Part shown: positions 6,260-34,007 of the stretch, piece by piece | How positions within the stretch are numbered: position 1 is the stretch's first letter | How the letters are laid out: the number at the start of each line of letters is the position of its first letter | Source of the DNA: Thermodesulfovibrionales bacterium | GTDB lineage: Bacteria > Nitrospirota > Thermodesulfovibrionia > Thermodesulfovibrionales > UBA9159 | Length of the DNA stretch: 44,180 nucleotides | Assembly: GCA_046290845.1 (NCBI GenBank) | Contig: JBKBUA010000005.1 | Span: 1-44,180, forward strand | Direction: 5' to 3' | Program-made: the position numbers and the translations under genes | The notes under the pieces: generated by a model | Seen by the model: only the letters and a program-made list of their open reading frames with translations | Databases searched by the model: none | What the model was told of the DNA's origin: nothing

Positions 6260-6267
6260 ACCGCCTC

Positions 6268-7401: not shown

Positions 7402-7410
7402 AAATCCTCC

Positions 7411-20413: not shown

Positions 20414-20962
20414 TTACCGCGGTTTCAGGATATCAGGGGTTATCTCTTCAAACTTGATGATCCGTCCACCATGTTTTTTAATATAATCCTCAGCATCGCT
20501 CCTTTTTGAAAAGGGAACGAGGGCCTCACCCATTGGTCCCATTATATCTCCACCATAGACATAAAAGGCCTCCTTCGCATCAACCCAGTTTCCAACAGGA
20601 TGATCCCACTGGGCCTTCCCCATATCATTCACATATATAGCAACAATATTCCTTGGCCTGTCAGGCTGGTGATAAAAGAGTAACATATCGAGGGTGCTGC
20701 AGAATGTATCAATCTCACCATTTCGGTAATGGATCTGTGCCTTTGAGCCAGGAAAGTCCACTATGATCATGCCGCAGACTCTGCAAGAATGTTGCCTTGT
20801 AAACTCTATGGGAGGAGGTTTTTCTACCGTCTTCTTGCAGGAGGTAAGGATAAAGGAAAAAACAAGAAGAAAGATCAATAGAACACACGTATAGGACGGT
20901 ACAGATTGGCATGACCAACCATACCGTCCTATGATCTGATGCTCCTGTAACAGAAAGATCAC
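20414..20962 (-). CDS. nosL: NosL-family copper chaperone lipoprotein
   Basis: Lipobox-like FILTSC. CRVCGM motif. ...YVYGGDIMGPMGEALVPFSKRSDAEDYIKKHGGRI matches the NosL family pattern. Confidence 0.8.
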   Translation of the reverse strand: MIFLLQEHQIIGRYGWSCQSVPSYTCVLLIFLLVFSFILTSCKKTVEKPPPIEFTRQHSCRVCGMIIVDFPGSKAQIHYRNGEIDTFCSTLDMLLFYHQPDRPRNIVAIYVNDMGKAQWDHPVGNWVDAKEAFYVYGGDIMGPMGEALVPFSKRSDAEDYIKKHGGRIIKFEEITPDILKPR

Positions 20963-20967
20963 AGTTC

Positions 20968-22383
20968 CTATCTCTTCTTGCTCATCCTCTTATGAAGTAC
21001 TATCCCAGCAGCAAGGAATAGAAAGGCAACAAAGGGTGGTAATACATAGACCTTAAGCGGTGTGGAAGGCTCTAAGATCATGTAATACCAGGCAGAGACC
21101 GTTGCCTTATTACCCTCCTCCTTAAATCTACCATCATAGACCTGAACAGCGAAGGGCAAAAACTTCCCGGGCTCAAACTTTGTATCCTTGTCATCCTGAG
21201 TATTGAGCGGCCTTCTGAAAAGAACCCTGTACCGACCATCTTTGTAAGACCCCTCTGCCCTAATGTCCTGCCTCTCCTGCTGGGTAAGAGTGCCTGGTCC
21301 TGTTGCGTTGAATTCAGTGCCCTTACTATCAGCCATAGAAAATGACCAGAGGTAAACAGCAGCCTTTTTATCTCCCATAAAGAAATAGGGCTTATCCCCT
21401 ATCTTTAAGGGATACTGAATCCTTACCAAGTCAGGTGGTAGGCCATCGTCACCCTTATTTGGCTTTTTGTCTGTCCATTCAAGTAATATCCCAACCTCGG
21501 CATTGGTATAGAGCCCTCTCACCCTTACATTCGTGATTGTAGCCGTAAAGTTCCTCGGCTCAAACATTATCTGGCCTGCCATTGGGAGATCGAGATAATC
21601 AACCTTATCCCAGGTCTTGTCCTCAACAGAAGGGACAGTAGTAGCCTTCTTAACCATGAGAGAGACGCCGAGCTTTCTTTGAAGTTGTCTTGATTTTATA
21701 AAACAGGCAAGGGCCCATCTCTCATCATCAGAAAGCGTATCCTGATAGGATGTCATGGGTGTGCCTTTATTACCTGTCGTTATAGTAAGATAGATATCCT
21801 CAAGGCTGGAACCCTTCCTGAATTCCCAGGGATGGGTATGATCAGCAGGAAGTATGGGATTCCCCCAGTCATCCTTAAAGTTTTCCTGCCAGGATTTTTC
21901 CCCATCACCCCTTCCCTCCTTGCCATGGCATTCCCAGCACTTTGCTGTCTTCTCTTCGATCTCCTTGCCCTTCTTTATCATCTCATCAGAACAGGATGGA
22001 ACCTTTGTTATCTTCACAGGTTCAGGCTTTGATGTAAAGACATCAGGGGCAAATTTCTTCAGGTACTCAATGAGGGATTTCGCCTCTTCATCACTAAACC
22101 TCCTCCATGGAGGCATAGATGTCCCTGGATTACCATCCCTTATCATCCTCTTGAGGTCCTCATCTGAAGGGGGGTCTCCAGTTGGTGTTGATGTAAACTT
22201 GTATGTTCCAACTGTAAAGTCCCGTGGCTTTGGAAAGGTGAAATCCTTTGCGTATCCATCGCCCTTTCCCTCATAGCCATGGCACTGAGCACACCAGGCC
22301 TCATAAAGGACCTTTCCCTTTTCCTCTCCATAGGCATTAAGTGATACTGACAATAATAAAATCAATATGAATAACAATCTCAT
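20968..22383 (-). CDS. Fusion protein: dihaem cytochrome c (N) + EB_dh haem-b domain (NxrC-like) + C-terminal TM anchor
   Basis: AGGAGG 6 nt before ATG 22383. Signal peptide MRLLFILILLLSVSLNAYG. Haem motifs CAQCHG and CWECHG. EB_dh pattern follows (...VGILLEWTDKKPN...PYFFMGDKKAAVYLWSF...ATVSAWYYM...). Tail helix FVAFLFLAAGIVLHKR. Confidence 0.85.
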   Translation of the reverse strand: MRLLFILILLLSVSLNAYGEEKGKVLYEAWCAQCHGYEGKGDGYAKDFTFPKPRDFTVGTYKFTSTPTGDPPSDEDLKRMIRDGNPGTSMPPWRRFSDEEAKSLIEYLKKFAPDVFTSKPEPVKITKVPSCSDEMIKKGKEIEEKTAKCWECHGKEGRGDGEKSWQENFKDDWGNPILPADHTHPWEFRKGSSLEDIYLTITTGNKGTPMTSYQDTLSDDERWALACFIKSRQLQRKLGVSLMVKKATTVPSVEDKTWDKVDYLDLPMAGQIMFEPRNFTATITNVRVRGLYTNAEVGILLEWTDKKPNKGDDGLPPDLVRIQYPLKIGDKPYFFMGDKKAAVYLWSFSMADSKGTEFNATGPGTLTQQERQDIRAEGSYKDGRYRVLFRRPLNTQDDKDTKFEPGKFLPFAVQVYDGRFKEEGNKATVSAWYYMILEPSTPLKVYVLPPFVAFLFLAAGIVLHKRMSKKR

Positions 22384-22396
22384 CTTAACCTCCTGC

Positions 22397-23200
22397 TTAC
22401 CATGTTCTCGGTTTATTCCCCGTTGCCTCATAGATGAAGAGGATCACCTTCCATATCTCCTCTTCGGTAAGGATATCCTCAAAGGAAGGCATAGAGGAAT
22501 CCGAGGGATTTGATCCTGGCGGGAGACCTCTCCATCCCTTTGCAATGCGCCAGAATACAAATGACTCTGGAAGCTGTGCAATGGTATCTGTACCCCTGAA
22601 AGGTAATGGCAAGGGGTTAAAGGCCTGGGCAAAATGGCCTTTACCATCAAGGTCATCGCCATGACAGTAAAAACAGTTCTGGTAATAGACTTTCTTGCCC
22701 TCTTCAAGATACTTCTTGAGATTAGCCGTATCCTTCCTTAATGGGTTCTCAAGTCCGAGTATCTTTATAGGTTTGCCCCTAAATTCAATCTCAGCAGGAG
22801 GCTCAGGATGGACTATCCTTGCCGAGACGGGTGGTTCGTACCTGGGTTTTACCTTAAAATATGTAATCAGACCTGCAGCAACAGGGATAGCTACAAAGAC
22901 GATAACAATCCTCTGTATCTTCTTTTCCTCGTCAGCGAGTACAGATTTAACAGGTCTTAAAAAGGCCTGGAACGTCTCTTCCTCTATGGAGAAGAATATA
23001 AGAAAGGCAAATATAGCCATTGCCATATACATCACTATGACCTGACCGGGTAGGGGTGGCATGAAAAGGCCCAAGCTCTTAAGAAACCCGTAGATAGCTA
23101 TGAGTATCCCGATAAAGTTAAAAAAGGGAGACTTCCTGATAGCTGCAAGGACTGATATAGCAATGCCGATTAGAGTGACCAAAGGGTATATCCATACCAT
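22397..23200 (-). CDS. Membrane-anchored (about 3-4 TM) monohaem cytochrome c, module B
   Basis: Paralogue of 11578-12303: CFYCHG, SSMPSF, ends ...KPRTW. Confidence 0.85.
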   Translation of the reverse strand: MVWIYPLVTLIGIAISVLAAIRKSPFFNFIGILIAIYGFLKSLGLFMPPLPGQVIVMYMAMAIFAFLIFFSIEEETFQAFLRPVKSVLADEEKKIQRIVIVFVAIPVAAGLITYFKVKPRYEPPVSARIVHPEPPAEIEFRGKPIKILGLENPLRKDTANLKKYLEEGKKVYYQNCFYCHGDDLDGKGHFAQAFNPLPLPFRGTDTIAQLPESFVFWRIAKGWRGLPPGSNPSDSSMPSFEDILTEEEIWKVILFIYEATGNKPRTW

Positions 23201-23202
23201 AT

Positions 23203-23724
23203 CTATTTACCTCCCTTCTGAGCCTTATCAATCTGGGCCTTAAGGGCCTCAACCGATGCAGGATAACTCACAGTGACCTTACCACCCTTACTCTGGAGAA
23301 AGGCCGTTAATGCTATAAGCTCACCCTCATTAAGAGATGTTGGTGGCTTATGAACAGGTGGCATAATGTTATCAAATCCTTTTTCTACATAGGCACCAGG
23401 ATTAACAAGGGCCTCAAAGGCATGATCTTCTGGCTTCATATTCCTTTTCTTTGCCTCCTCTTCCATAAGCTTTCCGATAGTATCAATTGAAGGTGCCCTC
23501 ATGCCTGGTTCTGCCTTCATGGGATGGCAGACCATGCACTGCCCCTTTCCGAAGAGTATCTGCTCACCTATCTGGATCAACTCCTCAGTAGTAACCCCTT
23601 CCTGGATCTTCAGTTCCTTGGGTGGATGTGATTCTGATTGAGGAAGAAAATACAGCCCAATATAGGCAAAAAAGAGATTTATCCCTAAAACAACGAGACC
23701 TAATTTGATAGCTCCCGATCTCAT
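23203..23724 (-). CDS. Single-TM-anchored monohaem cytochrome c, module B
   Basis: Paralogue of 12354-12770: CMVCHP, NIMPP. 4-nt overlap with the CydA-like gene. Confidence 0.85.
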   Translation of the reverse strand: MRSGAIKLGLVVLGINLFFAYIGLYFLPQSESHPPKELKIQEGVTTEELIQIGEQILFGKGQCMVCHPMKAEPGMRAPSIDTIGKLMEEEAKKRNMKPEDHAFEALVNPGAYVEKGFDNIMPPVHKPPTSLNEGELIALTAFLQSKGGKVTVSYPASVEALKAQIDKAQKGGK

Positions 23725-25469
23725 CCTTCCTGCCTCCTTTCCTCAGCTACCTTTTCGAGTTTCATTATGCTCCAGAAGACAAAGGCAATAAGTGCAAAGA
23801 ATAGTAAGGTGATTATAGTAACTATTACTGCTGCTATACCATGGGCAGGGAGATAGGCATCAGGGCTCGTATCCTTAAGTATTCCATAGACATGCCAGTA
23901 TTGTCTGCCACCTGACCTCATATAACCCATCATTCCCATAAGCCATGTAAAAGTCACTGTAATCCCGATAAGGGCATACTGGGATCTTTCGGGCATCTTT
24001 CCCCAACGGGGTTCTCCTATCACCTTCGCTCCTTTATACATCTTGTTATCCAGGATGAAAAGGCCGATTATTGAAAGGAAGAATACACCGAATTGAATAG
24101 GAGAAAGCACCTTCACCCTCACCGCAGCAGGAACCATGTAACTGTAAACACCGATGATGAGAACGATAATGGTGGAAAATATTATTATACCTGCCCTTAT
24201 CGCCCTTCCAGTCTTTACCCAGGGAACAACAGGGTCCTTGTTGCTCATCCTGAAGATGGCATAACTCAGGAATGTGGCAAGATAAGAGATTATCACAGCC
24301 GTATTCTTTGCAGCCATGACACCGAGGTTGCCCAAGGCAGGGTGATACGCCCCGATCCTCCTTGCCTCCTCAAGGCTCAAGGCAACACTGTGGGGAGTTA
24401 GCCACACAAGGTAACCAAAGAGGACGGTTATAAAGAGGAACTTCACATACTTGAAGTACCTCTCACCGCCCGGCATCTTATTCAGGGATATCCATAGGTA
24501 ATAGTTGATAAAGAAGAGTATTGCTCCAATGAGGATAGCCTGCATGACCCAGAGCCATGCAAAGAATCCACCCATAAGCTGTATACCCATCTGTTCATTG
24601 AAGGCATAGATCTCTATACCGAGGAGATAGCCTATACCAGGAAGGATAAGAGAAAAACCTATTGCTATCATTGCTGATGTATAACCCATCCAGTCATAAT
24701 AGGCCTTTTCTTCTTCGTTTCTGGCGGTTATAAACCTGTAGGCAGCATAGGCAGCAGCAATTCCAGCGCCAAAAACGACATTTGCAACGAGCCTGTGAAG
24801 TGAAAGCGGTATCCACATGTAGGTCTTTATTGCTTGCCATCTATTGAGGAGTTCACCCTCAGGACTCACACCTCCAGGGGTGGTCATATACCCGACCCAT
24901 GCACTCGTTATTAGCAGTAGAATCGCACCCATCACATTCAGCAAGACCCCGATACCCACATGGGTTCCCTTTTTCTCCTTCATCCTCTGCCAGGAATAGA
25001 AGTAGTAGTAACAAACAAAGACCTCACCATACATGAAGAGTATGTAGAACCACCATGTTGGTCCGAGGATCTTCAGTAAATGGGCAATAAATTTGGGATA
25101 TAGCAGAGGTAGGCTCACCATAAGGATAGCGCCCATTATGGCAGTTAGTGTATAGGCTAATGTGAAGAGTTTTGTAAAGTCATAGGCGATCCTGTCGAGC
25201 CTCTCATCCTGCCTTTTCCATCCCAAAAATTCCATTGCAACCGCAAAGATAGGAACGCCCAGAACAAAGGCAGCAAAATTAAGATGTATCTGGGCGATTA
25301 TCCATACCCACACCCTGCTTCCAAGTAGAGGGAAAAATCTATACCCCTCAGGGCTTGGTGAGGGTAAAATACTCTTTAAGAAAAAAAGACCAGCAAATCC
25401 TGCACCCAGTATCAGGGTTAATTTAATAAAACCCTTAACAATCCCCTTTTTTACACTTCCTTCCGCCAC
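23721..25469 (-). CDS. CydA-like 'cytochrome bd-like' polytopic membrane protein (no CydB partner), module B
   Basis: Alignable end to end with 12767-14455 (shared DERLDR, HR[FL][IV]ANV, AAYAAY, EEKA[HY]YDWMGYT, RSQYALI, WH[IV]YG[VI]L). Retains the N-terminal His (AQIHLNF). Confidence 0.8.
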   Translation of the reverse strand: MAEGSVKKGIVKGFIKLTLILGAGFAGLFFLKSILPSPSPEGYRFFPLLGSRVWVWIIAQIHLNFAAFVLGVPIFAVAMEFLGWKRQDERLDRIAYDFTKLFTLAYTLTAIMGAILMVSLPLLYPKFIAHLLKILGPTWWFYILFMYGEVFVCYYYFYSWQRMKEKKGTHVGIGVLLNVMGAILLLITSAWVGYMTTPGGVSPEGELLNRWQAIKTYMWIPLSLHRLVANVVFGAGIAAAYAAYRFITARNEEEKAYYDWMGYTSAMIAIGFSLILPGIGYLLGIEIYAFNEQMGIQLMGGFFAWLWVMQAILIGAILFFINYYLWISLNKMPGGERYFKYVKFLFITVLFGYLVWLTPHSVALSLEEARRIGAYHPALGNLGVMAAKNTAVIISYLATFLSYAIFRMSNKDPVVPWVKTGRAIRAGIIIFSTIIVLIIGVYSYMVPAAVRVKVLSPIQFGVFFLSIIGLFILDNKMYKGAKVIGEPRWGKMPERSQYALIGITVTFTWLMGMMGYMRSGGRQYWHVYGILKDTSPDAYLPAHGIAAVIVTIITLLFFALIAFVFWSIMKLEKVAEERRQEG

Positions 25470-25519: not shown

Positions 25520-26236
25520 TTATTTCTTGCTCATGGTCACATTCAGGTCTGAGGCCTTCCCTGCCGAGACCTCCACATCCTTTTTTTCTTCCTTCAGGCC
25601 TTCATGCCAGAACCTTACAGTATATTTACCAGGAGGAAGGTCTTTAATCTCAAAGTTTCCATTATCATCTGTAATTGCTACATAGGGATGTTCCGAGACA
25701 TAGACATAGGCCCTCATCCATGCATGGGCATCACATTTAACATCGTGGAGACCTGTGGTCTTCACAGGCTTTGTTATAACCTGATCCTTCTTTGGAAGGG
25801 CAAGGTTATAAACCGTCCTCCTCTTGTCACCAAGCATAACCGCCAGGCTCGTATTGTGAAGGATCGGATCACTGTTCTTGAGGATATAATTTGATCCCTT
25901 GTAGGCAATGCTTACGAGGGGCTCAAAGTAGCATTTCTGGTTATCAATCGTTGTATCCTTCTTAGGCGCGGCCTTACCCTTTTGAACATTCTCTACTATC
26001 ACAAGCACATTCTTGATACCCATATCGCCTGATATAAGATACATATTAGAAGGCTGGCTACTACCACAGAATTCCACATCCTTCTCGATCTTGAGAACTG
26101 GAGATTCATATTTTCCCGCAACCTTCACCTTACCTTTAATACTGCCACCATTCTTGACATCAACAACCTCATAGGCAAATGAGGCAGTAACGATGGCCAG
26201 CAATAGAAACATCACGATTACTGTTATCCTTTTCAT
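25520..26236 (-). CDS. Exported cupredoxin-like domain + carboxypeptidase-regulatory-like (Ig-like) domain protein with a complete type-1 copper-like ligand pattern
   Basis: Signal peptide. DPILHNT ... KCDAHAWM gives His...Cys-x2-His-x2-Met, the amicyanin-type spacing. C-terminal DDNGNFEIKDLPPGKYTVRFWHEG. Confidence 0.6.
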   Translation of the reverse strand: MKRITVIVMFLLLAIVTASFAYEVVDVKNGGSIKGKVKVAGKYESPVLKIEKDVEFCGSSQPSNMYLISGDMGIKNVLVIVENVQKGKAAPKKDTTIDNQKCYFEPLVSIAYKGSNYILKNSDPILHNTSLAVMLGDKRRTVYNLALPKKDQVITKPVKTTGLHDVKCDAHAWMRAYVYVSEHPYVAITDDNGNFEIKDLPPGKYTVRFWHEGLKEEKKDVEVSAGKASDLNVTMSKK

Positions 26237-26300: not shown

Positions 26301-26801
26301 TCACCCCCTTTCCCCCATTATCTCCTTTATAAGTCTGTGAAGTTCAGGCTCATGGATATAATGTCCCACAACCCTCCTAACAAGCCTTTTAGAGTCCACA
26401 AAGACCAGTACAGGGACATAATTGATCCTGTATCTCTTTAGCAGGTCATCCCTGTTGCCTGCAAACATGGGAAATGTGAAACCCATCTCCTTTTTGTATG
26501 CCCTTACGAGTCTGCTATCCCTTGCCATTATGTTAATACCTATTATCCTCAGCTTATCCTTACCAAACTTAGCCTCTGCCCTTTTAAGATGGGCTATTAT
26601 CTGGGTGCAGTAATGACAGGCATTATGGGTAAAATAGATGATCGTTGGTCTGTCAATTAGAGTACCGAAATCTACATTCCTGTTGTCCTCATCAGGAAGA
26701 ACAAAGGTTGGTACAGGAGAACCGACAAGGTCTTCTCCGGCAGAATAAAGATTATAAGGCAGACTTAATGTCAAGATGATTACAAGGACCAAACTTTTCA
26801 T
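26301..26801 (-). CDS. Exported TlpA/redoxin-like thiol:disulfide oxidoreductase
   Basis: Signal peptide. Thioredoxin-fold active site FTHNACHYC (CxxC). cis-Pro region NYVPVLVFVD. Confidence 0.8.
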   Translation of the reverse strand: MKSLVLVIILTLSLPYNLYSAGEDLVGSPVPTFVLPDEDNRNVDFGTLIDRPTIIYFTHNACHYCTQIIAHLKRAEAKFGKDKLRIIGINIMARDSRLVRAYKKEMGFTFPMFAGNRDDLLKRYRINYVPVLVFVDSKRLVRRVVGHYIHEPELHRLIKEIMGERG

Positions 26802-27838
26802 CCTATCTTCATCCTCATGACCTCATATCTCAGTCTATTTCTGTAGTTATGACCGTAAACCACCGGCACACCGTCAGCCTCGATGTATGTATAGGCAAAG
26901 GTATTAATGATATCCTCCTGTTTTGGAACAAGGTCGATACCCCGGCCTGAGGAGAACTTTATCCTGTCAGGTGGTATCCTACCGAAATAAAAATCCCTCA
27001 TCTCTGGCCTCCTCTTTGCCTCTGAGATATCAACGGGTACCCATTTCCTATCACTGTAAAAACTTACCCAACTGTGGGCATTTATACAGTCAGCCTCTAT
27101 CTCTCCCTTTTTCTTCATCTCAGATGGATAGGGCAGAAGTATCCCTTGTTCCCATCTCACAGGTATTCCCTTATACATCATCATGCTCCTGAAGAGGGCA
27201 TGGAATTCATCACACCTTCCTGCCCTCTCCTCAAAGGCAATGGAACTCACTCCCCTTCCGCAGACCTCATGGACATAATTAAGCCTATCTATAATTGCAT
27301 CAAAGACCTTCCTTCCGATCCTAACAGTATCCCTCTCATTCCCTATCACCCTCTCAGCAAAGTCCATGATATTTTTATCCCACTTCTCCCATTCAGAGGG
27401 TTTAAGAGATCCTTCATCGGGCTCGCCACCATGAATACCCTCTATCCTTCTATCTAAATGGAAGGAAAGGATAATCCTTTCACCTGCCTTAAGTCTTCCT
27501 GTCTCGAGATAAAAGATCTTATTATTCCTGTCCTCCGTAATCCTGCCAGATATCTTTGATTTAATATCCACTCCTTTAATCTCCTGAGCATGGTCACTTC
27601 TTGGAACTGGCATCCATATCCTTACAAGCCCCGCCTTTGGAGGCCTTAATATCTCGGTGGTGTAAGTGATCTTCAGTGAAACAGACCTTACATTCCTGTC
27701 CTCTATGGTCTTTGCAGAGGTCAAGACAGGATATATCCCCTCGCCTAAGAGGAAGAAGGTTCCAAACAGAAAGGCCCTCCTGCTAAGGCTACAGGTAATC
27801 ACCTGATTACCTGTTCTCCTCTCATTTCTTTTCCTCAT
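26798..27838 (-). CDS. TAT-exported transglutaminase-like (Cys-His-Asp) superfamily protein
   Basis: Probable start MRKRNERR at 27838. Twin-arginine motif LSRRAFLFG. Core motifs GRCDEFHALF...GIPVRWEQG, NAHSWVSFY, WVPVDISE. Confidence 0.75.
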   Translation of the reverse strand: MRKRNERRTGNQVITCSLSRRAFLFGTFFLLGEGIYPVLTSAKTIEDRNVRSVSLKITYTTEILRPPKAGLVRIWMPVPRSDHAQEIKGVDIKSKISGRITEDRNNKIFYLETGRLKAGERIILSFHLDRRIEGIHGGEPDEGSLKPSEWEKWDKNIMDFAERVIGNERDTVRIGRKVFDAIIDRLNYVHEVCGRGVSSIAFEERAGRCDEFHALFRSMMMYKGIPVRWEQGILLPYPSEMKKKGEIEADCINAHSWVSFYSDRKWVPVDISEAKRRPEMRDFYFGRIPPDRIKFSSGRGIDLVPKQEDIINTFAYTYIEADGVPVVYGHNYRNRLRYEVMRMKIG

Positions 27839-28259
27839 CAGGCAAGACATCTCCTGTAACAACCAATGTAGTCATCTGTCTATTTCTATCGTTTGTCCAG
27901 ACCTCAACATACTTAGAAATATGTCCCACCTTAACAGCAGGGACAGAGGTATCCACTATCACTGTAATCTTACCCTTCTCATTAGGACCTATCTCTGCCG
28001 AACTGGCAGTAGCAGTCGTACAGGCCCTTCAGGCAGGTATGAGTTTATCGATCCTGAGTACCCCGCCTCCCTCATTGATGAACTCAAAGTCATGGACTAT
28101 CCTCTCCCCTTTCTTTACAGAGCCAAAGTCAAACCTCGTCTCATAGAACCTGATCGAAGGTTCCTCAGCCCTGACGGTGCCTGACAAAACCAGAAGATAC
28201 AAAGAAAGAATCAAAAAAATCCTAAGGGGATAGGTTGATCTCCACATCTTTCCTCTCAC
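27822..28259 (-). CDS. DUF1573-like exported protein interrupted by one in-frame TGA (28031-28029): candidate selenoprotein (UxxC) or pseudogene
   Basis: The track ORF 28029-28259 stops at ...LRIDKLIPA-TGA. The same frame continues for 68 more codons (RACTTATASSAEIGPNEKGKITVIVDTS...VVTGDVLPDEEKK*) to TGA 27824-27822. Both halves together resemble one DUF1573 domain, and the TGA sits at the family's Cys motif. Confidence 0.55.
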
Positions 28260-28983
28260 CTTTCTTAAGAGAGATCTTTACTTTTTTGAAACCAAAGCCC
28301 TCGTGCCATACCATAAGGGTATATTCTCCTGGTAAGATTCCCTCCAGATTAAAGGAACCTGTCTCATCCGTCACAGCCCCGTAGGGATGATCAAAGACAA
28401 AGACATAACCTCTGAGCCAGCTATGGGCATTGGATTTTATCCTCACATAACCTCGATCAGCAGAATAGGAGTGGTACTCTTTAATGGGTTTTTCTACCTT
28501 CATCCCTTTCTTAGGAAGGGCAATATTATAAATAGTAGCCCCGTCTTCTAATGGCCTTTGAGATAGGGTCTTGTGGTATTCCAGGCCCAGTTTGAGCTGG
28601 AGCGTGTGGAGTATGGGATCCTCATTTCTAAAGATGAATCTTCCTCCCACGAAGCCCACATTCACAAGAGGCTCCACCTCGCAATTCTTTATTGTTATCC
28701 ACACATCCTTAGGGGTTAAAGCTCTACCCTTTTTAACACCATCAAGCCAGACAACTGCATTCTTTACAACACCCTTTGAGATAAGGTATTTCCTGGCAGC
28801 CCTTTCACTTCCGCAGACCTCTGTATCTCGATCAATCTTTATGAGCTCATCAGCAGGGACTGAACCAGTGAACCTCACATAGCCGTTAATTGTTGCTCCA
28901 TCCGTCACAGAAACTACCTCATAGCCCATTACAGGAAGGGCAGTAACGAGGATTGTAACAGTAGCAATCAAAAGAACTCTCAT
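28222..28983 (-). CDS. Paralogue of 25520-26236 (cupredoxin-like + Ig-like domains) lacking the Cys and Met copper ligands
   Basis: Same architecture (DPILHTL ... KSNAHSWL ... DETGSFNLEGILPGEYTLMVWHEG). Ser replaces Cys and Leu replaces Met. ATGA overlap with nosY. Confidence 0.6.
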   Translation of the reverse strand: MRVLLIATVTILVTALPVMGYEVVSVTDGATINGYVRFTGSVPADELIKIDRDTEVCGSERAARKYLISKGVVKNAVVWLDGVKKGRALTPKDVWITIKNCEVEPLVNVGFVGGRFIFRNEDPILHTLQLKLGLEYHKTLSQRPLEDGATIYNIALPKKGMKVEKPIKEYHSYSADRGYVRIKSNAHSWLRGYVFVFDHPYGAVTDETGSFNLEGILPGEYTLMVWHEGFGFKKVKISLKKGERKDVEINLSP

Positions 28984-29825
28984 GTCAAGTACCTCCTTTT
29001 AAATAGATAATGGCTTGCGGCTAAGGGCACTATAATCCATAACAGGGATATCAAGAGGAGAATCGAAGTCTTAAAGAAAGCAGGGAATTCAACAGATGCA
29101 AGACCTATAAATACCTTAAACTCACCTATAGAAAGAAAGTTCATTACCCTGTAAATATCAACAGGGTTCAGTAACAGAAGGGTGGTAAAGATAGCACTGC
29201 TCAATTCACCCTTTGTAAGGATGAGAAGACCAAGCAGAGCGAGGTCATAAAGCACCGAAAGTGAAAGCCATATAAAGATCATAAAGGCAATGACCTTCGA
29301 CCTCTCCTCAAAGAGGACAGAAATAAGGAATGAGAGGCTCAGGAAGATAAGGCCAAGGATAATAGAATTAAACATAAAGAATATATAACTCTTTGAGGCA
29401 GCAAAACCAGCCTTTAATATGAGTATAAGACCGGCAAGGCCAAGACCTCCGAGGGTTGAGATGGTCAGGCTTATTAAGAGGCCTGAGAACTTCCCTGCTA
29501 TGAATTCTGAGAAAGAGATGGGTGCTGAGAGGAAAAGGTCAAGAGTACCCCTTTCCCTCTCATCTATTATTATTCCACCTCCCAGAGTAAGAGCGAGTAT
29601 AGGGATGAAATAGGTAACGAGGCTCGTGAGGCTTGCCACTGTTGCCTCGATCCTCCTGAATCCTGCTATACCCGATGGTGCTGAACCGAAGTAGGCAATA
29701 AGGATAGTAAATACCGAAAAGGCAGTTGCTATTACTATTACCCACCTCGTCCTTAACCTGTCTGTGAGTTCCTTTCTTGCTATTGCACCTATAGCATCAA
29801 TGGAGACCAAAGAACACCTCCTCAA
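28980..29825 (-). CDS. nosY: NosY, ABC-2-type permease of the NosDFY system
   Basis: Six-TM ABC-2 permease directly downstream of nosF within the nos cluster. Confidence 0.85.
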   Translation of the reverse strand: MRRCSLVSIDAIGAIARKELTDRLRTRWVIVIATAFSVFTILIAYFGSAPSGIAGFRRIEATVASLTSLVTYFIPILALTLGGGIIIDERERGTLDLFLSAPISFSEFIAGKFSGLLISLTISTLGGLGLAGLILILKAGFAASKSYIFFMFNSIILGLIFLSLSFLISVLFEERSKVIAFMIFIWLSLSVLYDLALLGLLILTKGELSSAIFTTLLLLNPVDIYRVMNFLSIGEFKVFIGLASVEFPAFFKTSILLLISLLWIIVPLAASHYLFKRRYLT

Positions 29826-30696
29826 GACTCGGCTCTATTACTGTAAGGTCAACAAAGCTATCCCTTTTTTCCATGAGCGATGAAAGAACCCTCATCTTTT
29901 CATTCCTCGGGATAGTGGCATAAATATAACCATCCCTTTTCGTTATATCCTTTACCCCTTCCCCTCTCAAAACATCTTCAACCGAGCCATTCATCGAGAC
30001 AGCAGGAAGTATCGAGAGTTTAAGGGGAAGGTTCAGTCCTGTATAAAGTTCTGTCAGACTCCCGATGGCCTTTAACGAGCCATTCTTCAATATAGCCACC
30101 CTATCAACCCTTGCCTCGATCTCTGCAAGGACATGAGATGAAAGGAGAACCGTCAGTCCCTTTCTCTGCCTAACAGCCAGGAGGGTTTCGTAGAAATCCT
30201 TTGTTCCGACAGGATCAAGGCCTGATGTTGGCTCATCGAGGATCAGTATATCAGGGTCATTAACAAGGGCCTGGGCAAGATTCAGCCGCTGCCTCATACC
30301 CTTTGAATAGGTACCCACCCTTCTTGAAAGAAAATCCTCTGAGACAATACCTTTGAGTAAGTCAGGCAGCCCATTAAGTTTTACTCCCTTTATCCTCGCA
30401 AAGAGGTTAAGTACCTCCATTCCTGTAAGATTGTCATAAAAAGAGATCCTCTCGGGCATGTATCCTATCTTTCTTTTAAAGGAGAGCCAGTCCTTTTCAC
30501 CTAAATCTTTTCCATATAAAAGCACCTCCCCAGAGGATGGTCTTAGTATGCCTGTCAGTATCCTGAGGAGTGTGGACTTGCCAGAGCCATTAGGACCCAC
30601 AAGACCGAGCATCTCCCCCTCCTTTATGGTAAAGGATACGGAGTCAAGGGCCTTTATATCCCCATAATTCTTTGTTATCTCTCTAAATTCAATCAT
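29797..30696 (-). CDS. nosF: NosF, ABC ATPase of the NosDFY system
   Basis: Walker A GPNGSGKST, signature YSKGMRQRL, Walker B ILILDEPTSGLD. Lies between the nosD domain gene and nosY. Confidence 0.9.
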   Translation of the reverse strand: MIEFREITKNYGDIKALDSVSFTIKEGEMLGLVGPNGSGKSTLLRILTGILRPSSGEVLLYGKDLGEKDWLSFKRKIGYMPERISFYDNLTGMEVLNLFARIKGVKLNGLPDLLKGIVSEDFLSRRVGTYSKGMRQRLNLAQALVNDPDILILDEPTSGLDPVGTKDFYETLLAVRQRKGLTVLLSSHVLAEIEARVDRVAILKNGSLKAIGSLTELYTGLNLPLKLSILPAVSMNGSVEDVLRGEGVKDITKRDGYIYATIPRNEKMRVLSSLMEKRDSFVDLTVIEPSLEEVFFGLH

Positions 30697-30697
30697 A

Positions 30698-32920
30698 TCA
30701 ATGCATCGGAAGCTTATCTATATCGCCATAATACCTTACAGGACTGTAAGGGAATCTCTCCTTCATCTCCTTCCATTGAGCGTGAAAGGGAAACATTGAT
30801 GGTCTTCTGTCAACAACCCTCGGCACCTTAAGAAAGGGAAACTGCTTCTCTATGACCCACAATACCTGTAGTGCAGGGCTTGAATAAAGTATCTTTGCCA
30901 TGGGATATCTCCAGAGTATATGATCCACTACTGTGTTTGATTCATAGGCTATGTCACCGATACCGTCCTCTGTCATGTCCCAGCCCAGGTAATCACTCCA
31001 GTAATTGTTATCCCATTGCTGATCCCTGCTTGCCACGAACTTAACCTGAATCTCGTTATTAATAAAAGAATTCTTTGTGACCTCGTTCTCCTCAGACCCT
31101 CCCCAGCTATGGAGGCCAAGATTATTGTTCATGATAAGGTTGCCAGTTAGTTTATTAAGTATAGAGTTATAGAGAAATATGCCCTTTGTGTTGCCTATCA
31201 CTATGTTGTCCTTTATCTCACCCCTTACAGTCTGGATAAGGAGAAGCCCGTGAGTCTTATTTCCAACAGAGATGTTATTGTTCATCTCCGACTGCTTTGT
31301 ATACATTATAGCAAGCCCAACGAGATTCTCCTGTGCATGGTTGTTGTTAAAGACTCCCCTGTCAACCCACATGGTATGAAGGGCATATCTGGAATTCCTA
31401 ATCTCATTGTTTATTATTTTTCCATCGTGAGAGACCTCCACATACATACCATCCCTGCAGTAATTCAATCTGTTTCCTGATACCGTTGCCTCCTGGGCAT
31501 CGGTTAGATAAATGCAATTGCCCCTGTAATTGAGGTCCAGTTCCTTCCTGCCATCAACAACGTTACCTTCGATCCTTATGCCCCTGTTACTTACTGCCCA
31601 TATACCGAACATGATATCCTTCAGATGGTTGTTTCTCACAGTAACACTATCAGCACCCTTTCCTACATAGATCCCTGTACTCTGTGTACCTGGAACATCC
31701 CTTCCATGGATAAGGGTGAATCCCTCTACAGTAACATCCTTTTTTAATACAGTAATGATGTTACCCCTTTCGACCTTTATAACAGGATTGTTTATTCCCT
31801 TGAGATAGATACTTTTATTAATAGTTATCTCCTCACTGTATTCGCCACCCCTGACCTCAATAGTATCGCCATCTTTAGCAACCCTGATAGCTTCAGATAT
31901 GCTCTTATAACCCTCAGGCCCAACATAAAGGGTCTTCCCATAAAGGATAGATGGGATTAAAAGCACCAAAAGAACAAGGCCTGCTGCATGAGCCTTCAAA
32001 GGCATCTCTTTTCCCTTCTTCTTCTGTCTTATAAGGACAGGGCAAAGTTCCTGATCACAGTAATTTAACTGACAGTCAAGGCACTCAAGACATTCCTTCA
32101 TATCTATAGTGCCATCCGCTATAGCCTGAGGTCTGCAGGTCCTTCCGCATATCTTACAGGTTCCGCAGAAGTCATACCTTGCTATCCTTAAAATCGGAAT
32201 CCTTCTGATAAAAGAAGGTATCGCCAGGGCAGCACCCAGTGGGCAGAGATAGCGGCAGAAGGCCCTGTATATTAAGACTGAGCCGATGGTTATCACCATA
32301 AAATAGGCAACAAAAAACCAATCCCTCTTTAATTTAAGGACAAAGGTCCTGAAGGGCTCTATCTCGGTGAGATACTCAGAGAGCATAAAGCTGTAAAAAG
32401 ATACGGCTGCAATGATTAAAAAAAAGATATATTTCAGATAGACCATCCTTGTGTTGACCTTCCCGGAGATCCTGATCCTGAGCCCTGGAAAGAACCTGTC
32501 ATAGACCTTGTTAAGGAGTTCTAAAAAGGCACCATAAGGACAGAGCCATCCACAGAAAACACCCCTTCCCCAGAAAACAATAGTTATGGCAATAAAGATA
32601 AAGGAGATAAATATGAAGGGCTCTAAGAGAAAGAGGCCGAGGGGAAACTGCATCTCTTTAAGGGAATTGAGGATAATCACTATATTGGTGGTTGTTGGCT
32701 GTGCCTTCAGGAATAATCCCACATAGACAAATGATATAACAAGAAAAGTATTTCTCAATATCTTAACGGCCTTTCTATTCTTCGAAAGCCTCCCCCTGAA
32801 GACCATGATAAGGAGAATTGAGATAAGAAAGAGAGAAAATATGATAATACTGGAGACATTCATTTCCCAGACCTGTCTCCAGAGAGAGAATTCCGAGATC
32901 TCTGTCATAACTTCTTCCAT
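30698..32920 (-). CDS. Fusion: NosR C-terminal half (TM helices with CxxxCP motifs + 2x[4Fe-4S]-type Cys clusters) joined via one TM helix to a full NosD beta-helix domain
   Basis: Probable ATG at 32920, 1 nt after the stop of the preceding gene. CGWLCPYGA and CRYLCPLGA. CGTCKICGRTCRPQA and CLECLDCQLNYC. Helix AAGLVLLVLLIPSILYG. NosD repeats follow (...RGNCIYL...CRDGMYVE...SRYALHTMW...VGLAIMY...NYWSDYLGWDMTEDGIGD...SSPALQVL). Confidence 0.85.
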   Translation of the reverse strand: MEEVMTEISEFSLWRQVWEMNVSSIIIFSLFLISILLIMVFRGRLSKNRKAVKILRNTFLVISFVYVGLFLKAQPTTTNIVIILNSLKEMQFPLGLFLLEPFIFISFIFIAITIVFWGRGVFCGWLCPYGAFLELLNKVYDRFFPGLRIRISGKVNTRMVYLKYIFFLIIAAVSFYSFMLSEYLTEIEPFRTFVLKLKRDWFFVAYFMVITIGSVLIYRAFCRYLCPLGAALAIPSFIRRIPILRIARYDFCGTCKICGRTCRPQAIADGTIDMKECLECLDCQLNYCDQELCPVLIRQKKKGKEMPLKAHAAGLVLLVLLIPSILYGKTLYVGPEGYKSISEAIRVAKDGDTIEVRGGEYSEEITINKSIYLKGINNPVIKVERGNIITVLKKDVTVEGFTLIHGRDVPGTQSTGIYVGKGADSVTVRNNHLKDIMFGIWAVSNRGIRIEGNVVDGRKELDLNYRGNCIYLTDAQEATVSGNRLNYCRDGMYVEVSHDGKIINNEIRNSRYALHTMWVDRGVFNNNHAQENLVGLAIMYTKQSEMNNNISVGNKTHGLLLIQTVRGEIKDNIVIGNTKGIFLYNSILNKLTGNLIMNNNLGLHSWGGSEENEVTKNSFINNEIQVKFVASRDQQWDNNYWSDYLGWDMTEDGIGDIAYESNTVVDHILWRYPMAKILYSSPALQVLWVIEKQFPFLKVPRVVDRRPSMFPFHAQWKEMKERFPYSPVRYYGDIDKLPMH

Positions 32921-32921
32921 C

Positions 32922-34007
32922 TTATTCCATAAACCTCTCAGGTAATCTATAGTCTGTGGTAAAAGATTTGAATTCCTTTTTTGCAACGGTCGGTCTGTAA
33001 GGTAGCAGGAGATTAAAGGTAAAGGGCCCCGTTGGATCGAAATCCATATCCCTCACGATAAAGATTCCTCCTTCTTTTATCACAGGTGCACCAGGTGACT
33101 TTAGCTCTGTAAGGATGCGGTAATCCCTATCCCTGAAGACATAGACCTTACTCTCCTGCTCAAGGTTAAATCTGTCAAAGACACCGCCCCTTGCGAAGCC
33201 TGAACCTTTGAAGGAACCCGTACCAGTCGCTACAACGAATATAGCGGTCTCTCCATTTTTTAATGAACTCATGATATCCCTGTAAAGTGCCTCGCCAAGG
33301 ACATTCCTTCCGATAGAAGGCGGATTAAGGATGCCAAAGTAGAGGTCAATATAAGCCTCAGCACCTTTAATACCCAGTTCCTTCGGATAGACCTTGAGAT
33401 TTTTCACCCCTCCTGCCTTCTGGAGGTCCTCCCAGGTAAGACTTTGGTACTTCTGGCTTATCCTCCTCTCCGCCTTTTTTGCAACCTTAATCAATCCAGT
33501 CTCAGAAGCCACCTTTCTTGCACTTCCAAGGATAATGACATTCTGCACAACTGCTGTAACCGTGGCGCCTGTTATTGCATCCATTGATATCTCTTTGCCA
33601 ACAGAAAGGGGCTTGAGTATGCTCTTTCCTTGATACTGTTTAAGAAACTTCTGATAATTCTCCTCCTTCAGCCCTATAAGGACTATGGGTTCTGAATGGA
33701 ATAAGAGTTTGACACCCGTTATATTTCCATTTATATCAATACCGATTAAGGTCTCCATATGCTTGCCCGAATAACCAACAAGTTTTTCTGTCCAGTCCTT
33801 AGATATAAAGACATATCCTAGGAGGGTCCTTCCCCTGTAACCTTCCCAGTAGCCCTTTTTCTGAACAAATCTATCTGCCTGAAGGACATCTTCGAGTTTA
33901 TAGGGATATCTATGCTCAAAAAACTTCCACTGATCCCCATAGGCATTAAGGGGAAGCAAAATAAAAAAAAGCATTATCACACCTTTCTTCAAGATACACA
34001 CCTCCAT
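32922..34007 (-). CDS. NosR N-terminal half as a separate exported protein (FMN-binding periplasmic domain)
   Basis: Signal peptide. FMN_bind motif SMDAITGATVTAVV. NosR-like segment PPSIGRNVLGEA...GSFKGSGFARGGVFDRF. Ends with TAA 32924-32922. Confidence 0.8.
   Translation of the reverse strand: MEVCILKKGVIMLFFILLPLNAYGDQWKFFEHRYPYKLEDVLQADRFVQKKGYWEGYRGRTLLGYVFISKDWTEKLVGYSGKHMETLIGIDINGNITGVKLLFHSEPIVLIGLKEENYQKFLKQYQGKSILKPLSVGKEISMDAITGATVTAVVQNVIILGSARKVASETGLIKVAKKAERRISQKYQSLTWEDLQKAGGVKNLKVYPKELGIKGAEAYIDLYFGILNPPSIGRNVLGEALYRDIMSSLKNGETAIFVVATGTGSFKGSGFARGGVFDRFNLEQESKVYVFRDRDYRILTELKSPGAPVIKEGGIFIVRDMDFDPTGPFTFNLLLPYRPTVAKKEFKSFTTDYRLPERFME

What the first reader, a model, noticed from the sequence alone, without database searches (positions are those of the whole stretch)
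30698..34007. NosR is split after its FMN-binding domain and its membrane/Fe-S half is fused to NosD
Seen: 32922-34007 encodes a signal peptide and the periplasmic FMN-binding part of NosR, ending at TAA. One nucleotide later ATG 32920 (ATGGAATAAGATGGAA) opens a 740-aa ORF. That ORF contains the rest of NosR: the SLWRQVWE-type first helix, two CxxxCP motifs, and two ferredoxin-type Cys clusters. Then comes an extra TM helix (AAGLVLLVLLIPSILYG), followed without a stop by a complete NosD beta-helix domain. Established: in characterised clade-I systems NosR is one polypeptide and NosD is a separate Sec-exported protein docking on NosFY. Inference: the fusion physically couples the putative electron-donating NosR module to the NosDFY assembly machine. 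This hints that NosR's Fe-S domain serves CuZ assembly or repair (sulfur/copper delivery) rather than, or as well as, catalytic electron supply.
Basis: partly seen in the sequence, partly recalled or inferred. Interest (0 to 1): 0.7.

Follow-up and report, generated by a model that had tools for sequence, protein, structure and literature searches.

The report
Split NosR, with NosD fused on
In this Thermodesulfovibrionales nitrous-oxide-reductase cluster, NosR really is cut into a secreted flavoprotein and a membrane iron-sulfur protein fused to NosD, a layout conserved across a whole Nitrospirota clade; but the joint is NosD's own intact export signal with its cleavage site, so NosD is probably cut free again.

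Summary
ORF 32922-34007 (-) is the N-terminal, FMN-binding half of NosR. ORF 30698-32920 (-) is the NosR membrane/Fe-S half followed in frame by a complete NosD.

It is not an artefact. At least 58 protein clusters (48-100% identity; Thermodesulfovibrionales, Ca. Magnetobacterium, Ca. Magnetominusculus) carry the same NosR-C::NosD protein. At least 120 clusters carry the stand-alone ~357-aa NosR-N. Unsplit NosR::NosD fusions of about 1100 aa form a sister clade and a second, separate group. Close relatives with the same nosZ-nosR-nosD order keep the genes apart.

The "extra TM helix" is the NosD Sec signal peptide. All 73 fusions examined keep a basic n-region and a hydrophobic core. 71 of them keep small residues at -3 and -1 at the position where stand-alone NosD is cleaved; the other two do so one residue away.

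Best reading: a read-through fusion of adjacent genes, with an internal signal peptide that exports NosD and is probably cut by signal peptidase I. Cleavage is inferred, not shown.

I found no description of this layout in the searchable literature. I rate it a new variant of a known system, of moderate interest.

The parts
32922..34007 (-). nosR-N: a stand-alone gene for the periplasmic half of NosR (361 aa; NCBI calls a start 5 codons further in, giving 356 aa)
   Evidence: It matches NF046105 positions 41-373 of 680 (E 1.3e-73), Pfam FMN_bind at aa 78-151, and RnfG weakly. At least 120 clusters of 332-389-aa homologues end at the same ..P[ED]RFxE position.
33936..34007 (-). Sec signal peptide of NosR-N (aa 1-24, ..LNAYG|DQW)
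   Evidence: Read directly from the sequence. The same pattern of signal peptide followed by DQWKFFEHRY is present in the homologues printed.
33561..33581 (-). ApbE-type flavinylation motif DAITGAT (aa 143-149; predicted FMN-bearing Thr149)
   Evidence: The motif D-x-[IVL]-[ST]-G-A-T is present in all 120 stand-alone NosR-N homologues examined. Covalent flavinylation of a NosR threonine by ApbE is reported in PMC7660919.
32918..32924 (-). Split junction: TAA stop of nosR-N, one spacer base, then ATG of nosR-C::nosD (reading frame shifted by +1)
   Evidence: Relatives have other geometries at this junction: a 14-nt spacer in L002 and a 4-nt ATGA overlap in L004. The split point aligns with the juxtamembrane segment ..LPxxFVE-EEVPFW.. 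of unsplit fusions.
30698..32920 (-). nosR-C::nosD fusion ORF (740 aa plus stop)
   Evidence: The sequence is identical in the Logan assembly. 58 clusters with this architecture were found.
32261..32857 (-). NosR-C membrane core: five predicted TM helices (aa 22-220), with CGWLCP (aa 123-128) immediately after TM3 and CRYLCP (aa 222-227) just past its end
   Evidence: Hydropathy scan. Pfam Fer4_5 and NapH-family hits. K+R counts by loop fit the positive-inside rule. C123/C127/C222/C226 are invariant in 54 sequences.
32039..32167 (-). Cytoplasmic ferredoxin-type domain: CxxCxxCxxxC (C252-C262) and CxxCxxC..CP (C277-C293)
   Evidence: All eight Cys and P294 are invariant in alignment A1.
31937..32032 (-). 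Linker that is the internal NosD signal peptide (aa 297-328): n-region IRQKKKGKEMPLK, h-region AHAAGLVLLVLLIP, c-region SILYG, with the predicted signal-peptidase-I site between G328 and K329
   Evidence: Alignment of 73 fusions. The register is the same as in the signal peptides of stand-alone NosD in L011, L009 and L013. AlphaFold pLDDT is below 50 over aa 301-327.
30701..31936 (-). Mature NosD beta-helix domain (aa 329-740)
   Evidence: TIGR04247 scores 371 bits and Pfam NosD gives E 1e-38. The sequence matches P. stutzeri NosD 7o0y_A at E 2.6e-62. The model has pLDDT 86-96 here and matches 7osf_A with target TM-score 0.85 and rmsd 2.5 A.
29797..30696 (-). nosF (ABC ATPase); it starts 1 nt after the nosD stop
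   Evidence: Pfam ABC_tran. The position is conserved in all related loci.
28980..29825 (-). nosY (ABC-2 permease)
   Evidence: Pfam ABC2_membrane_2, E 2e-30. The position is conserved.
34085..35896 (-). nosZ, Tat-dependent (clade I) N2O reductase
   Evidence: TIGR04244 scores 827 bits against a cut-off of 625, and there is a TAT signal.
35911..36756 (-). Dihaem cytochrome c upstream of nosZ, a candidate electron donor
   Evidence: Pfam Cytochrom_C and Cytochrome_CBB3, two stretches each. It is conserved upstream of nosZ in L002, L004, L006, L009 and L013.

Best explanation
This is a lineage-specific re-packaging of the ordinary NosR and NosD modules, not a new machine.

1. Ancestral state. 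In a clade whose gene order is cyt c-nosZ-nosR-nosD-nosF-nosY, nosR and nosD abut or overlap. An example is the ATGA overlap in L013.

2. Fusion. Loss of the nosR stop, or a 1-nt frameshift, joined the two genes. The basic C-tail of NosR and the complete Sec signal peptide of NosD became an internal signal sequence. This is topologically permitted because the Fe-S C-terminus of NosR lies in the cytoplasm. One further N-in/C-out hydrophobic segment then exports NosD to the periplasm.

3. Split. In the Thermodesulfovibrionia branch, nosR was later cut at the short hinge between its periplasmic domain and TM1. This gave a Sec-secreted soluble flavoprotein (NosR-N) and a NapH-like membrane polyferredoxin (NosR-C). 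NosR-N keeps the ApbE flavinylation motif. NosR-C has a short acidic N-tail.

4. Likely fate of the fusion. During biogenesis the internal signal peptide inserts, SecYEG/SecA translocates NosD, and signal peptidase I most likely cuts after G328. Free mature NosD then docks on NosFY as in Pseudomonas. NosR-C is left with one extra C-terminal helix. The plausible gain from fusion is coupled 1:1 synthesis and co-translational membrane targeting.

What is shown: the architecture, its conservation, the homology of the linker to the NosD signal peptide, and the conserved (-3,-1) motif.

What is inferred: the topology, the actual cleavage, the order of the evolutionary events, non-covalent docking of NosR-N on NosR-C, and the proposed gain from fusion.
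For: Domain content: NF046105 is split at profile positions 373/383 between the two ORFs, and TIGR04247 is covered in full.

Conservation: 58 split-and-fused clusters and 16 full fusions were counted. The layout is the same in L002 (58% identity), L004/L005 (49%) and the Logan assembly L001. At least 120 clusters of NosR-N carry the DxxTGAT motif, a signal peptide and the same C-end. All Fe-S and CX3CP cysteines are invariant.

The linker is the NosD signal peptide:
- The alignment of 73 fusions shows an n/h/c organisation.
- Position -1 is A in 49, G in 19 and S in 4.
- Position -3 is A, V, T, L, I or S in 70.
- Position -2 is bulky and variable.
- Position +1 is never Pro.
- 71 of 73 obey the (-3,-1) rule in one register.
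- That register is the one used by stand-alone NosD: SVHA|KTLIVG in L011, KVFG|GTLIV in L009, AVGA|ETLRVG in L013.

Ancestral-type arrangement: nosR and nosD overlap by ATGA in L013.

Lability: a canonical layout (L009) and a three-gene layout with its own Shine-Dalgarno sequence (L011) are nested among the fusions, and fusions appear at two or more places in the NosR-C tree.

Topology: there are five TM helices plus the linker, and K+R residues are enriched in the predicted cytoplasmic loops. Counts are 5 in 11, 6 in 41 and 6 in 15, against 1 in 21 and 2 in 26 for the periplasmic ones. This fits the published NosR topology (PMC7660919).

Structure: the NosD part is confident and superposes on NosD of the solved NosDFY complex (TM 0.85). 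The linker has pLDDT below 50 and pTM is only 0.57, so there is no predicted fixed NosR-C/NosD interface. The first beta-strand begins at aa 330, two residues after the predicted site, so there is no tether spacer.
Against: No experiment or proteomic datum shows cleavage, and no signal-peptide predictor such as SignalP or DeepTMHMM was available. The length of the uncharged run in the linker (median 20) does not separate it from true TM helices of the same protein (18-20) or from NosD signal peptides (18), so that test was uninformative.

Long persistence of the fusion in several clades could mean that linkage is selected rather than neutral.

The NJ tree has no support values. The unfused nosD state in L009 rests on one A8 homopolymer. 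The unfused genes in Ca. Magnetobacterium casense are a frameshifted copy, not a true reversal.

In the window's own subclade the site is L-Y-G|K, which is allowed but less canonical than A-x-A.
Confidence: 0.6

Rival explanations
1. Tethered supercomplex. The linker stays uncleaved as a sixth TM helix, so NosD is held covalently next to the NosR-C polyferredoxin. NosR-C, NosD, NosF2 and NosY2 then form one membrane machine, and NosR's redox centres serve CuZ assembly or repair as well as, or instead of, catalytic electron supply.
For: The fusion is old and widespread and has arisen at least twice. The topology allows it. The hydrophobic stretch is long enough to span a membrane. NosR function is still unsettled, and NosF and NosL are listed as components of the NosR-containing denitrification complex described in P. 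aeruginosa (PMC5658584; PMC7660919).
Against: The signal-peptidase (-3,-1) motif is conserved in register across lineages down to 33% identity, although a pure anchor would not need it. No spacer lies between the site and the first NosD strand. AlphaFold finds no confident inter-domain packing. Close relatives work with separate genes. Published data indicate that NosR is not needed for assembly of the Cu centres (PMC7660919).
Confidence: 0.27
2. Assembly or sequencing artefact, or a decaying pseudogene: a single-base error created the nosR split or removed the nosR stop.
For: The two nosR pieces are in different frames, 1 nt apart. Some relatives do look frameshifted, for example Ca. Magnetobacterium casense.
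Against: An independent assembly gives the identical sequence. There are 58 fusion clusters and at least 120 NosR-N clusters, with junction geometries that differ between lineages. All cofactor ligands and the flavinylation motif are invariant.
Confidence: 0.01
3. Recoding. A programmed +1 frameshift at the TAA-G-ATG junction rebuilds a full-length NosR::NosD protein of about 1100 aa. Alternatively, an internal start at Met306 makes pre-NosD separately.
For: The downstream frame stays open for 65 nt upstream of the ATG. Full-length fusions exist elsewhere. In this window Met306 follows a purine-rich tract, AAGAAGAAGGGAAAAGAG.
Against: The junction frame and spacing differ between relatives: a 1-nt gap, a 14-nt gap and a 4-nt overlap. 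No frameshift site is therefore conserved. Met306 is absent from the closest relatives P0002-P0004.
Confidence: 0.04

Closest known systems
NosR of Pseudomonas stutzeri / Paracoccus denitrificans (NosR/NirI family; NF046105, PF27538)
   Same: It has the same modules in the same order: a signal peptide, a periplasmic FMN domain with the flavinylation Thr motif, a TM bundle with two CX3CP motifs, and a cytoplasmic 2x[4Fe-4S] domain. It also sits in a clade I, Tat-type nosZ cluster (PMC7660919).
   Different: Here it is encoded as two polypeptides cut at the hinge before TM1, and the second carries NosD. The gene order is nosZ-nosR-nosD rather than nosR-nosZ-nosD. Neither piece reaches the NF046105 cut-off (248 and 259 bits against 1000).
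NosD of the NosDFY(L) complex, P. stutzeri (PDB 7o0y, 7osf; TIGR04247)
   Same: The beta-helix domain is full length, 31% identical, with target TM-score 0.85. It is followed by nosF and nosY. The predicted mature N-terminus is in the same register.
   Different: Its Sec signal peptide is internal, preceded by 296 residues of NosR-C, instead of being at the N-terminus.
NapH / NosH quinol-dehydrogenase polyferredoxins
   Same: Without the FMN domain, NosR-C has the NapH-type layout of TM helices, two CX3CP motifs and two cytoplasmic 4Fe-4S motifs (TIGR02163 and NF007013 hits).
   Different: It has an extra N-terminal TM helix inherited from NosR. The scores are far below the NapH cut-offs (47 against 213 bits). 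No NapG/NosG partner was found in the window.
RnfG / NqrC FMN-binding subunits
   Same: NosR-N is a separate FMN_bind protein carrying the same covalent-flavinylation motif.
   Different: The match is weak (E 1e-4 to 7zc6_G). NosR-N has an extra conserved C-terminal region of about 200 aa and a cleavable signal peptide rather than an N-terminal anchor.
Bradyrhizobium japonicum FbcH, the cytochrome b-c1 polyprotein processed at an internal signal peptide (from my own knowledge; not retrievable in the paper library)
   Same: It is a polytopic membrane redox protein fused upstream of a periplasmic partner through an internal signal sequence that is cleaved after export. It serves as the functional model for what I propose here.
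   Different: The protein families are unrelated, and cleavage has been shown experimentally only for FbcH.

Membership tests
NosR (NF046105 / PF27538; Wunsch & Zumft-type iron-sulfur flavoprotein) | Periplasmic FMN-binding domain with the ApbE flavinylation motif | tested here: met
   FMN_bind at aa 78-151 and DAITGAT at aa 143-149 of the 361-aa ORF.
NosR (NF046105 / PF27538; Wunsch & Zumft-type iron-sulfur flavoprotein) | TM bundle with two CX3CP motifs and a C-terminal domain with two 4Fe-4S Cys motifs | tested here: met
   CGWLCP at 123, CRYLCP at 222, and C252-C262 plus C277-C293, all invariant in 54 sequences.
NosR (NF046105 / PF27538; Wunsch & Zumft-type iron-sulfur flavoprotein) | All domains on one polypeptide that scores above the curated equivalog cut-off (1000 bits) | tested here: not met
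   There are two ORFs, scoring 248 and 259 bits. The profile is divided at positions 373/383.
NosD (TIGR04247 / PF05048) | Full-length match above the curated cut-off, with the NosD beta-helix fold | tested here: met
   371 bits against a cut-off of 300, covering positions 1-376 of 377. 7o0y_A matches at E 2.6e-62. Foldseek gives target TM-score 0.85 to 7osf_A.
NosD (TIGR04247 / PF05048) | Encoded next to nosF and nosY in a nosZ cluster | tested here: met
   nosF is at 29797-30696, nosY at 28980-29825 and nosZ at 34085-35896.
NosD (TIGR04247 / PF05048) | Separate, Sec-exported soluble periplasmic protein | tested here: inconclusive
   It is not a separate gene. The signal peptide and cleavage motif are retained internally, but whether NosD is released could not be tested.
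Cleavable Sec (signal peptidase I) signal peptide | Basic n-region, hydrophobic h-region, small uncharged residues at -3 and -1, and no Pro at +1 | tested here: met
   In the window the sequence is RQKKKGKEMPLK / AHAAGLVLLVLLIP / SILYG|K. 71 of 73 fusions obey the rule in one register, and none has Pro at +1.
Cleavable Sec (signal peptidase I) signal peptide | Actual proteolytic processing in vivo | not testable with these tools
   This needs protein chemistry or proteomics.
Clade I (Tat-dependent) nos system | NosZ with a twin-arginine signal that scores above the TIGR04244 cut-off | tested here: met
   827 bits against a cut-off of 625; TAT_signal at aa 5-22.

The most novel reading that the evidence does not exclude
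The internal signal peptide is not cleaved in vivo, or only partly. NosD then stays covalently anchored to the NosR-C polyferredoxin, giving a NosR-NosDFY supercomplex. In it, NosR's membrane and Fe-S module delivers reducing power for sulfide/copper insertion or for re-activation of CuZ. The detached soluble flavoprotein NosR-N would shuttle between that complex and NosZ. This would give the long-unassigned NosR a defined partner and a defined job.
Probability: 0.2. Interest if true: 0.75.

Novelty: new variant of a known kind. Interest (0 to 1): 0.42.

Why it matters
The role of NosR in N2O respiration is still unsettled. Published views include electron donor, keeper of the CuZ state, and regulator (PMC7660919).

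This clade offers two natural experiments:
- The FMN domain works as a separate, secreted protein. Covalent linkage to the membrane part is therefore dispensable, and a soluble flavoprotein is available for biochemistry and structure work.
- NosR and NosD are made as one chain. A simple test (is the chain cleaved?) would decide whether NosR and NosDFY are physically coupled.

There is also a practical point. Annotation pipelines name the 740-aa protein only "NosD" and the 361-aa protein "FMN-binding protein". Surveys that score nosR presence, and use it as a clade I marker, will therefore miss nosR in Thermodesulfovibrionia.

Tried and rejected
- Genome scan with the single protein. An alignment query would have reached further. 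Taxon names therefore come only from source names.
- Length of the uncharged run as a discriminator between signal peptide and TM anchor. The distributions overlap (18 to 20), so I dropped it.
- Ca. Magnetobacterium casense as an example of reversal to separate genes. On inspection it is a frameshifted copy whose "NosD" has no signal peptide, so I did not count it.
- Literature searches for a NosR-NosD fusion, for NosR in Thermodesulfovibrio, Nitrospirota or Magnetobacterium, and for a solved NosR structure. I found no description and no NosR structure in the PDB. Wunsch & Zumft 2005 (PMC1064061) and the FbcH papers are not held.
- ApbE in the window. None was found among the annotated ORFs, although it sits beside the cluster in L006 and L013.
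- Artefact and programmed frameshift. Both were considered and rejected (see the rival explanations).


Full report
**1. What is in the window**

On the minus strand lies a nos cluster:
- a dihaem cytochrome c (35911-36756);
- a Tat-type clade I nosZ (34085-35896; TIGR04244 827 bits against a cut-off of 625);
- a 361-aa ORF (32922-34007);
- a 740-aa ORF (30698-32920);
- nosF (29797-30696) and nosY (28980-29825).

Source names place the contig in a Thermodesulfovibrionales MAG.

The 361-aa protein covers positions 41-373 of the 680-position NosR model NF046105 and contains FMN_bind. The 740-aa protein covers positions 383-680 of the same model at aa 4-302. It then covers the whole NosD model TIGR04247 at aa 341-709.

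The junction reads ...ERFME-TAA-G-ATG-GAA..., so the two nosR pieces are 1 nt apart and in different frames.

A hydropathy scan finds five TM helices in NosR-C and a sixth hydrophobic segment at aa 308-326. The motifs CGWLCP (123), CRYLCP (222) and two ferredoxin-type Cys clusters are present.

**2. It is real and conserved**

An independent Logan assembly of SRR31360864 encodes the identical 740-aa protein with the same neighbours.

A search of 5.8 billion proteins returned two groups of fusions:
- proteins of 721-804 aa with the same NosR-C::NosD architecture, from 100% down to 48% identity, named as Thermodesulfovibrionales, "Nitrospirae", Ca. Magnetominusculus and, through cluster members, Ca. 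Magnetobacterium;
- proteins of about 1060-1150 aa that also carry the FMN domain, that is, unsplit NosR::NosD, including one from Ca. Binatia.

My domain-based count gives 58 split-and-fused proteins and 16 full fusions among the 120 listed hits.

Loci at 58% (L002) and 49% (L004/L005) identity show the same order: cyt c, nosZ, nosR-N (358-359 aa), nosR-C::nosD, nosF, nosY. L006 shows cyt c, nosZ, nosR::nosD (1088 aa), nosF, nosY.

A search with NosR-N found at least 120 clusters of stand-alone proteins of 332-389 aa. All of them carry the motif D-x-[IVL]-[ST]-G-A-T. Those I printed have an N-terminal signal peptide, and nearly all end at ..P[ED]RFxE.

In the alignment of 54 fusions, all twelve cofactor cysteines and many NosD residues are invariant.

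The junction geometry differs between lineages: a 1-nt gap here, a 14-nt gap in L002, and an ATGA overlap in L004. A conserved recoding site or a recurrent read error is therefore excluded.

At 50% clustering only three of 456 strong hits (E below 1e-30) are fusion representatives: P0050, P0133 and P0135. The layout is thus clade-restricted and uncommon among nos systems overall.

**3. Where the cut and the joint lie**

Aligned with the unsplit fusions, the split falls in the short hinge between the periplasmic domain and TM1. Unsplit proteins read ..DYxLPxxFVE-EEVPFWVxRWQ... Here the sequence is ..DYRLPERFME* followed by MEEVMTEISEFSLWRQVWE... Nothing is missing.

The joint between NosR-C and NosD is the informative part. 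In all 73 fusions aligned, the segment after the last Fe-S cysteine (..CPxLI) has four features:
- a K/R-rich stretch;
- a hydrophobic core;
- usually a Pro, Gly or Ser helix breaker;
- a short c-region that ends immediately before the conserved NosD start [KR]-T-L-x-V-G.

At the aligned position, residue -1 is A (49), G (19) or S (4). Residue -3 is A, V, T, L, I or S (70). Residue -2 is variable and often bulky. Residue +1 is never Pro. In all, 71 of 73 obey the signal-peptidase-I (-3,-1) rule in one register, and the other two do so one residue away.

Stand-alone NosD proteins from close relatives use the same register..LPSVHA|KTLIVG (L011)..PKVFG|GTLIV (L009) and ..SAVGA|ETLRVG (L013).

In L013 the nosR stop overlaps the nosD start (ATGA). 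There NosR ends ..CPVLITGRGK just before the signal peptide MMIIVIAFLLF... This is the arrangement from which loss of a stop or a 1-nt frameshift would produce the fusion.

**4. Topology**

K+R counts per loop alternate as the positive-inside rule predicts:

| Segment | K+R / length | Predicted side |
|---|---|---|
| N-tail | 1 / 21 (with 5 acidic residues) | out |
| TM1-2 loop | 5 / 11 | in |
| TM2-3 loop | 2 / 26 | out |
| TM3-4 loop | 6 / 41 | in |
| 15 aa before the linker | 6 / 15 | in |

This agrees with the published NosR topology, with the FMN domain periplasmic and the Fe-S domain cytoplasmic (PMC7660919). The linker must therefore cross from inside to outside and place NosD in the periplasm. 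This is an inference, because no topology predictor was available.

**5. Structure prediction**

AlphaFold2 run on the 54-sequence alignment gives mean pLDDT 77.7 and pTM 0.57. By region:
- the NosD domain scores 86-96;
- the TM bundle scores about 80;
- the cofactor-less Fe-S domain scores about 46-50;
- the linker (aa 301-327) scores below 50 and has only a seven-residue helix.

The first beta-strand starts at aa 330, two residues after the predicted cleavage site. Foldseek places the NosD part on P. stutzeri NosD in the NosDFY(L) complexes, with target TM-score 0.85 and rmsd 2.5 A.

No NosR structure is in the PDB.

There is thus no computational sign of a fixed NosR-C/NosD interface, and there is no spacer of the kind a permanent tether would be expected to have.

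**6. Evolution**

A neighbour-joining tree of the NosR-C domain (no support values) shows three things:
- The split-and-fused proteins form one clade, sister to a clade of full fusions (P0058-P0068). This suggests that fusion came before fission.
- A second set of full fusions (P0073-P0079; locus L012 with nosZ, nosR::nosD, nosF, nosY, nosL) is interspersed with ordinary NosR proteins. Fusion has therefore arisen at least twice.
- Within the split clade sit two exceptions. L009 has a canonical layout, with NosR of 679 aa and NosD of 459 aa. L011 has a three-gene layout in which nosD has its own AAGGAG Shine-Dalgarno sequence, start codon and signal peptide.

Two cautions apply. The unfused nosD in L009 depends on the length of an A8 run. 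The "separate" genes of Ca. Magnetobacterium casense are a frameshifted fusion.

Overall, covalent linkage is gained and lost easily while the gene order stays fixed. That pattern is what one expects if the mature products are the same either way.

**7. Mechanism**

I commit to the following, at about 0.6 confidence for the whole chain.

NosR-N is exported by Sec, loses its signal peptide, is flavinylated by an ApbE encoded elsewhere in the genome, and docks non-covalently on NosR-C. No ApbE is in the window, but one is beside the cluster in L006 and L013.

NosR-C::NosD is inserted co-translationally. Its internal signal peptide starts export of the 412-residue NosD domain. Signal peptidase I cuts after G328, and free NosD joins NosFY.

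The fusion then acts as a polyprotein that couples synthesis and targeting. The processed FbcH cytochrome b-c1 precursor of Bradyrhizobium japonicum is a precedent (from my own knowledge; the papers are not in the library).

The age and recurrence of the fusion and the unsettled role of NosR speak for it. The conserved cleavage motif, the missing spacer, the lack of a predicted interface, the unfused relatives, and published evidence that NosR is not needed to assemble the Cu centres speak against it (PMC7660919).

**8. Novelty and score**

The proteins are already in public databases. They are named only "NosD family maturation protein" and "FMN-binding protein".

Full-text searches found no paper describing a NosR-NosD fusion or a split NosR. 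One paper notes that Tat-type NosZ is prevalent in Thermodesulfovibrionia but does not mention nosR.

This is a new variant of a known system. Interest is moderate, at 0.42. It offers a clean, cheap experiment on an open question and a naturally soluble NosR flavodomain. The most exciting reading is the less likely one.

Noticed in passing
window 23721-25469 (-) and 12767-14455 (-), with cytochrome c genes at 22397-23200, 20968-22431 and 11578-12303: Two CydA-like (Cyt_bd_oxida_I) membrane proteins lie next to c-type cytochromes, one of which carries an EB_dh/DOMON-like domain. The first set sits inside the extended nos cluster, and a CydA-like gene is also found downstream of the nos genes in L004/L005 and L009. 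It may be a quinol:cytochrome c module feeding NosZ, but this is unverified.
   Followed up: no
window 28222-28983, 26798-27862, 26301-26801 and 25520-26236 (-): Two CarboxypepD_reg-like beta-sandwich proteins, a transglutaminase-core protein and an AhpC/TSA thioredoxin-like protein follow nosY. Subsets of the same set recur after nosY in L002, L004, L006, L009 and L013, sometimes with SCO1/SenC. They look like clade-specific nos accessory genes of unknown role.
   Followed up: partly
window 20414-20962 and 19718-20410 (-), then 18546-19715 and 17887-18804 (-): Two NosL paralogues (E 2e-46 and 8e-15) lie about 8 kb from nosY. They are followed by a MacB/FtsX-type permease and an ABC ATPase. 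L002 shows the same pairing of NosL, NosL and MacB.
   Followed up: no
window 5336-11638 (-): A molybdopterin oxidoreductase gene set: an 1149-aa catalytic subunit, a Fer4_11 subunit (377 aa), an EB_dh-type haem subunit (307 aa) and a NarJ-like chaperone (264 aa). The layout resembles periplasmic Nxr/Nar or ethylbenzene-dehydrogenase-type enzymes.
   Followed up: no
P0081 (1174 aa; also P0142, 1162 aa): One protein combines an N-terminal cytochrome c domain, a NapH-like TM/Fe-S module, a NosR-type periplasmic domain and a second TM/Fe-S module. It is a duplicated NosR-like protein fused to cytochrome c, from a 2.97-Mb contig.
   Followed up: no
P0246 (1149 aa), P0218 (681 aa), P0252 (700 aa), P0244 (680 aa), P0229 (623 aa): In these proteins the NosD-like domain starts 200-380 residues in, and they did not match the NosR-C part of the query. 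They may be other kinds of N-terminal fusions to NosD.
   Followed up: no
L009 around 10000-10040: The only close relative with a canonical unfused NosR/NosD pair separates the two frames at a GGAAAAAAAAGATG run (A8). A 1-nt length change there would recreate the fusion, so this state could be a homopolymer error.
   Followed up: partly
P0124 and P0126 (Ca. Magnetobacterium casense, MBV6340042.1 and MBV6340043.1): These are annotated as separate "4Fe-4S binding protein" (333 aa) and "NosD" (417 aa). The first ends in out-of-frame residues and the second lacks a signal peptide, so they are a frameshifted copy of the fused gene seen in other Magnetobacterium genomes.
   Followed up: yes
window 32003-32005 (Met306 of the fusion) and the purine-rich tract 32006-32023: An in-frame ATG preceded by AAGAAGAAGGGAAAAGAG would start a perfect stand-alone pre-NosD, MPLKAHAAGLVLLVLLIPSILYG|KTLYVG. 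The Met is not conserved in the nearest relatives.
   Followed up: partly
window 14436-16771 (-): A radical SAM/SPASM protein with a PCP_red domain lies next to a tandem-Usp protein. The same pair lies upstream of the nos cluster in L004/L005.
   Followed up: no
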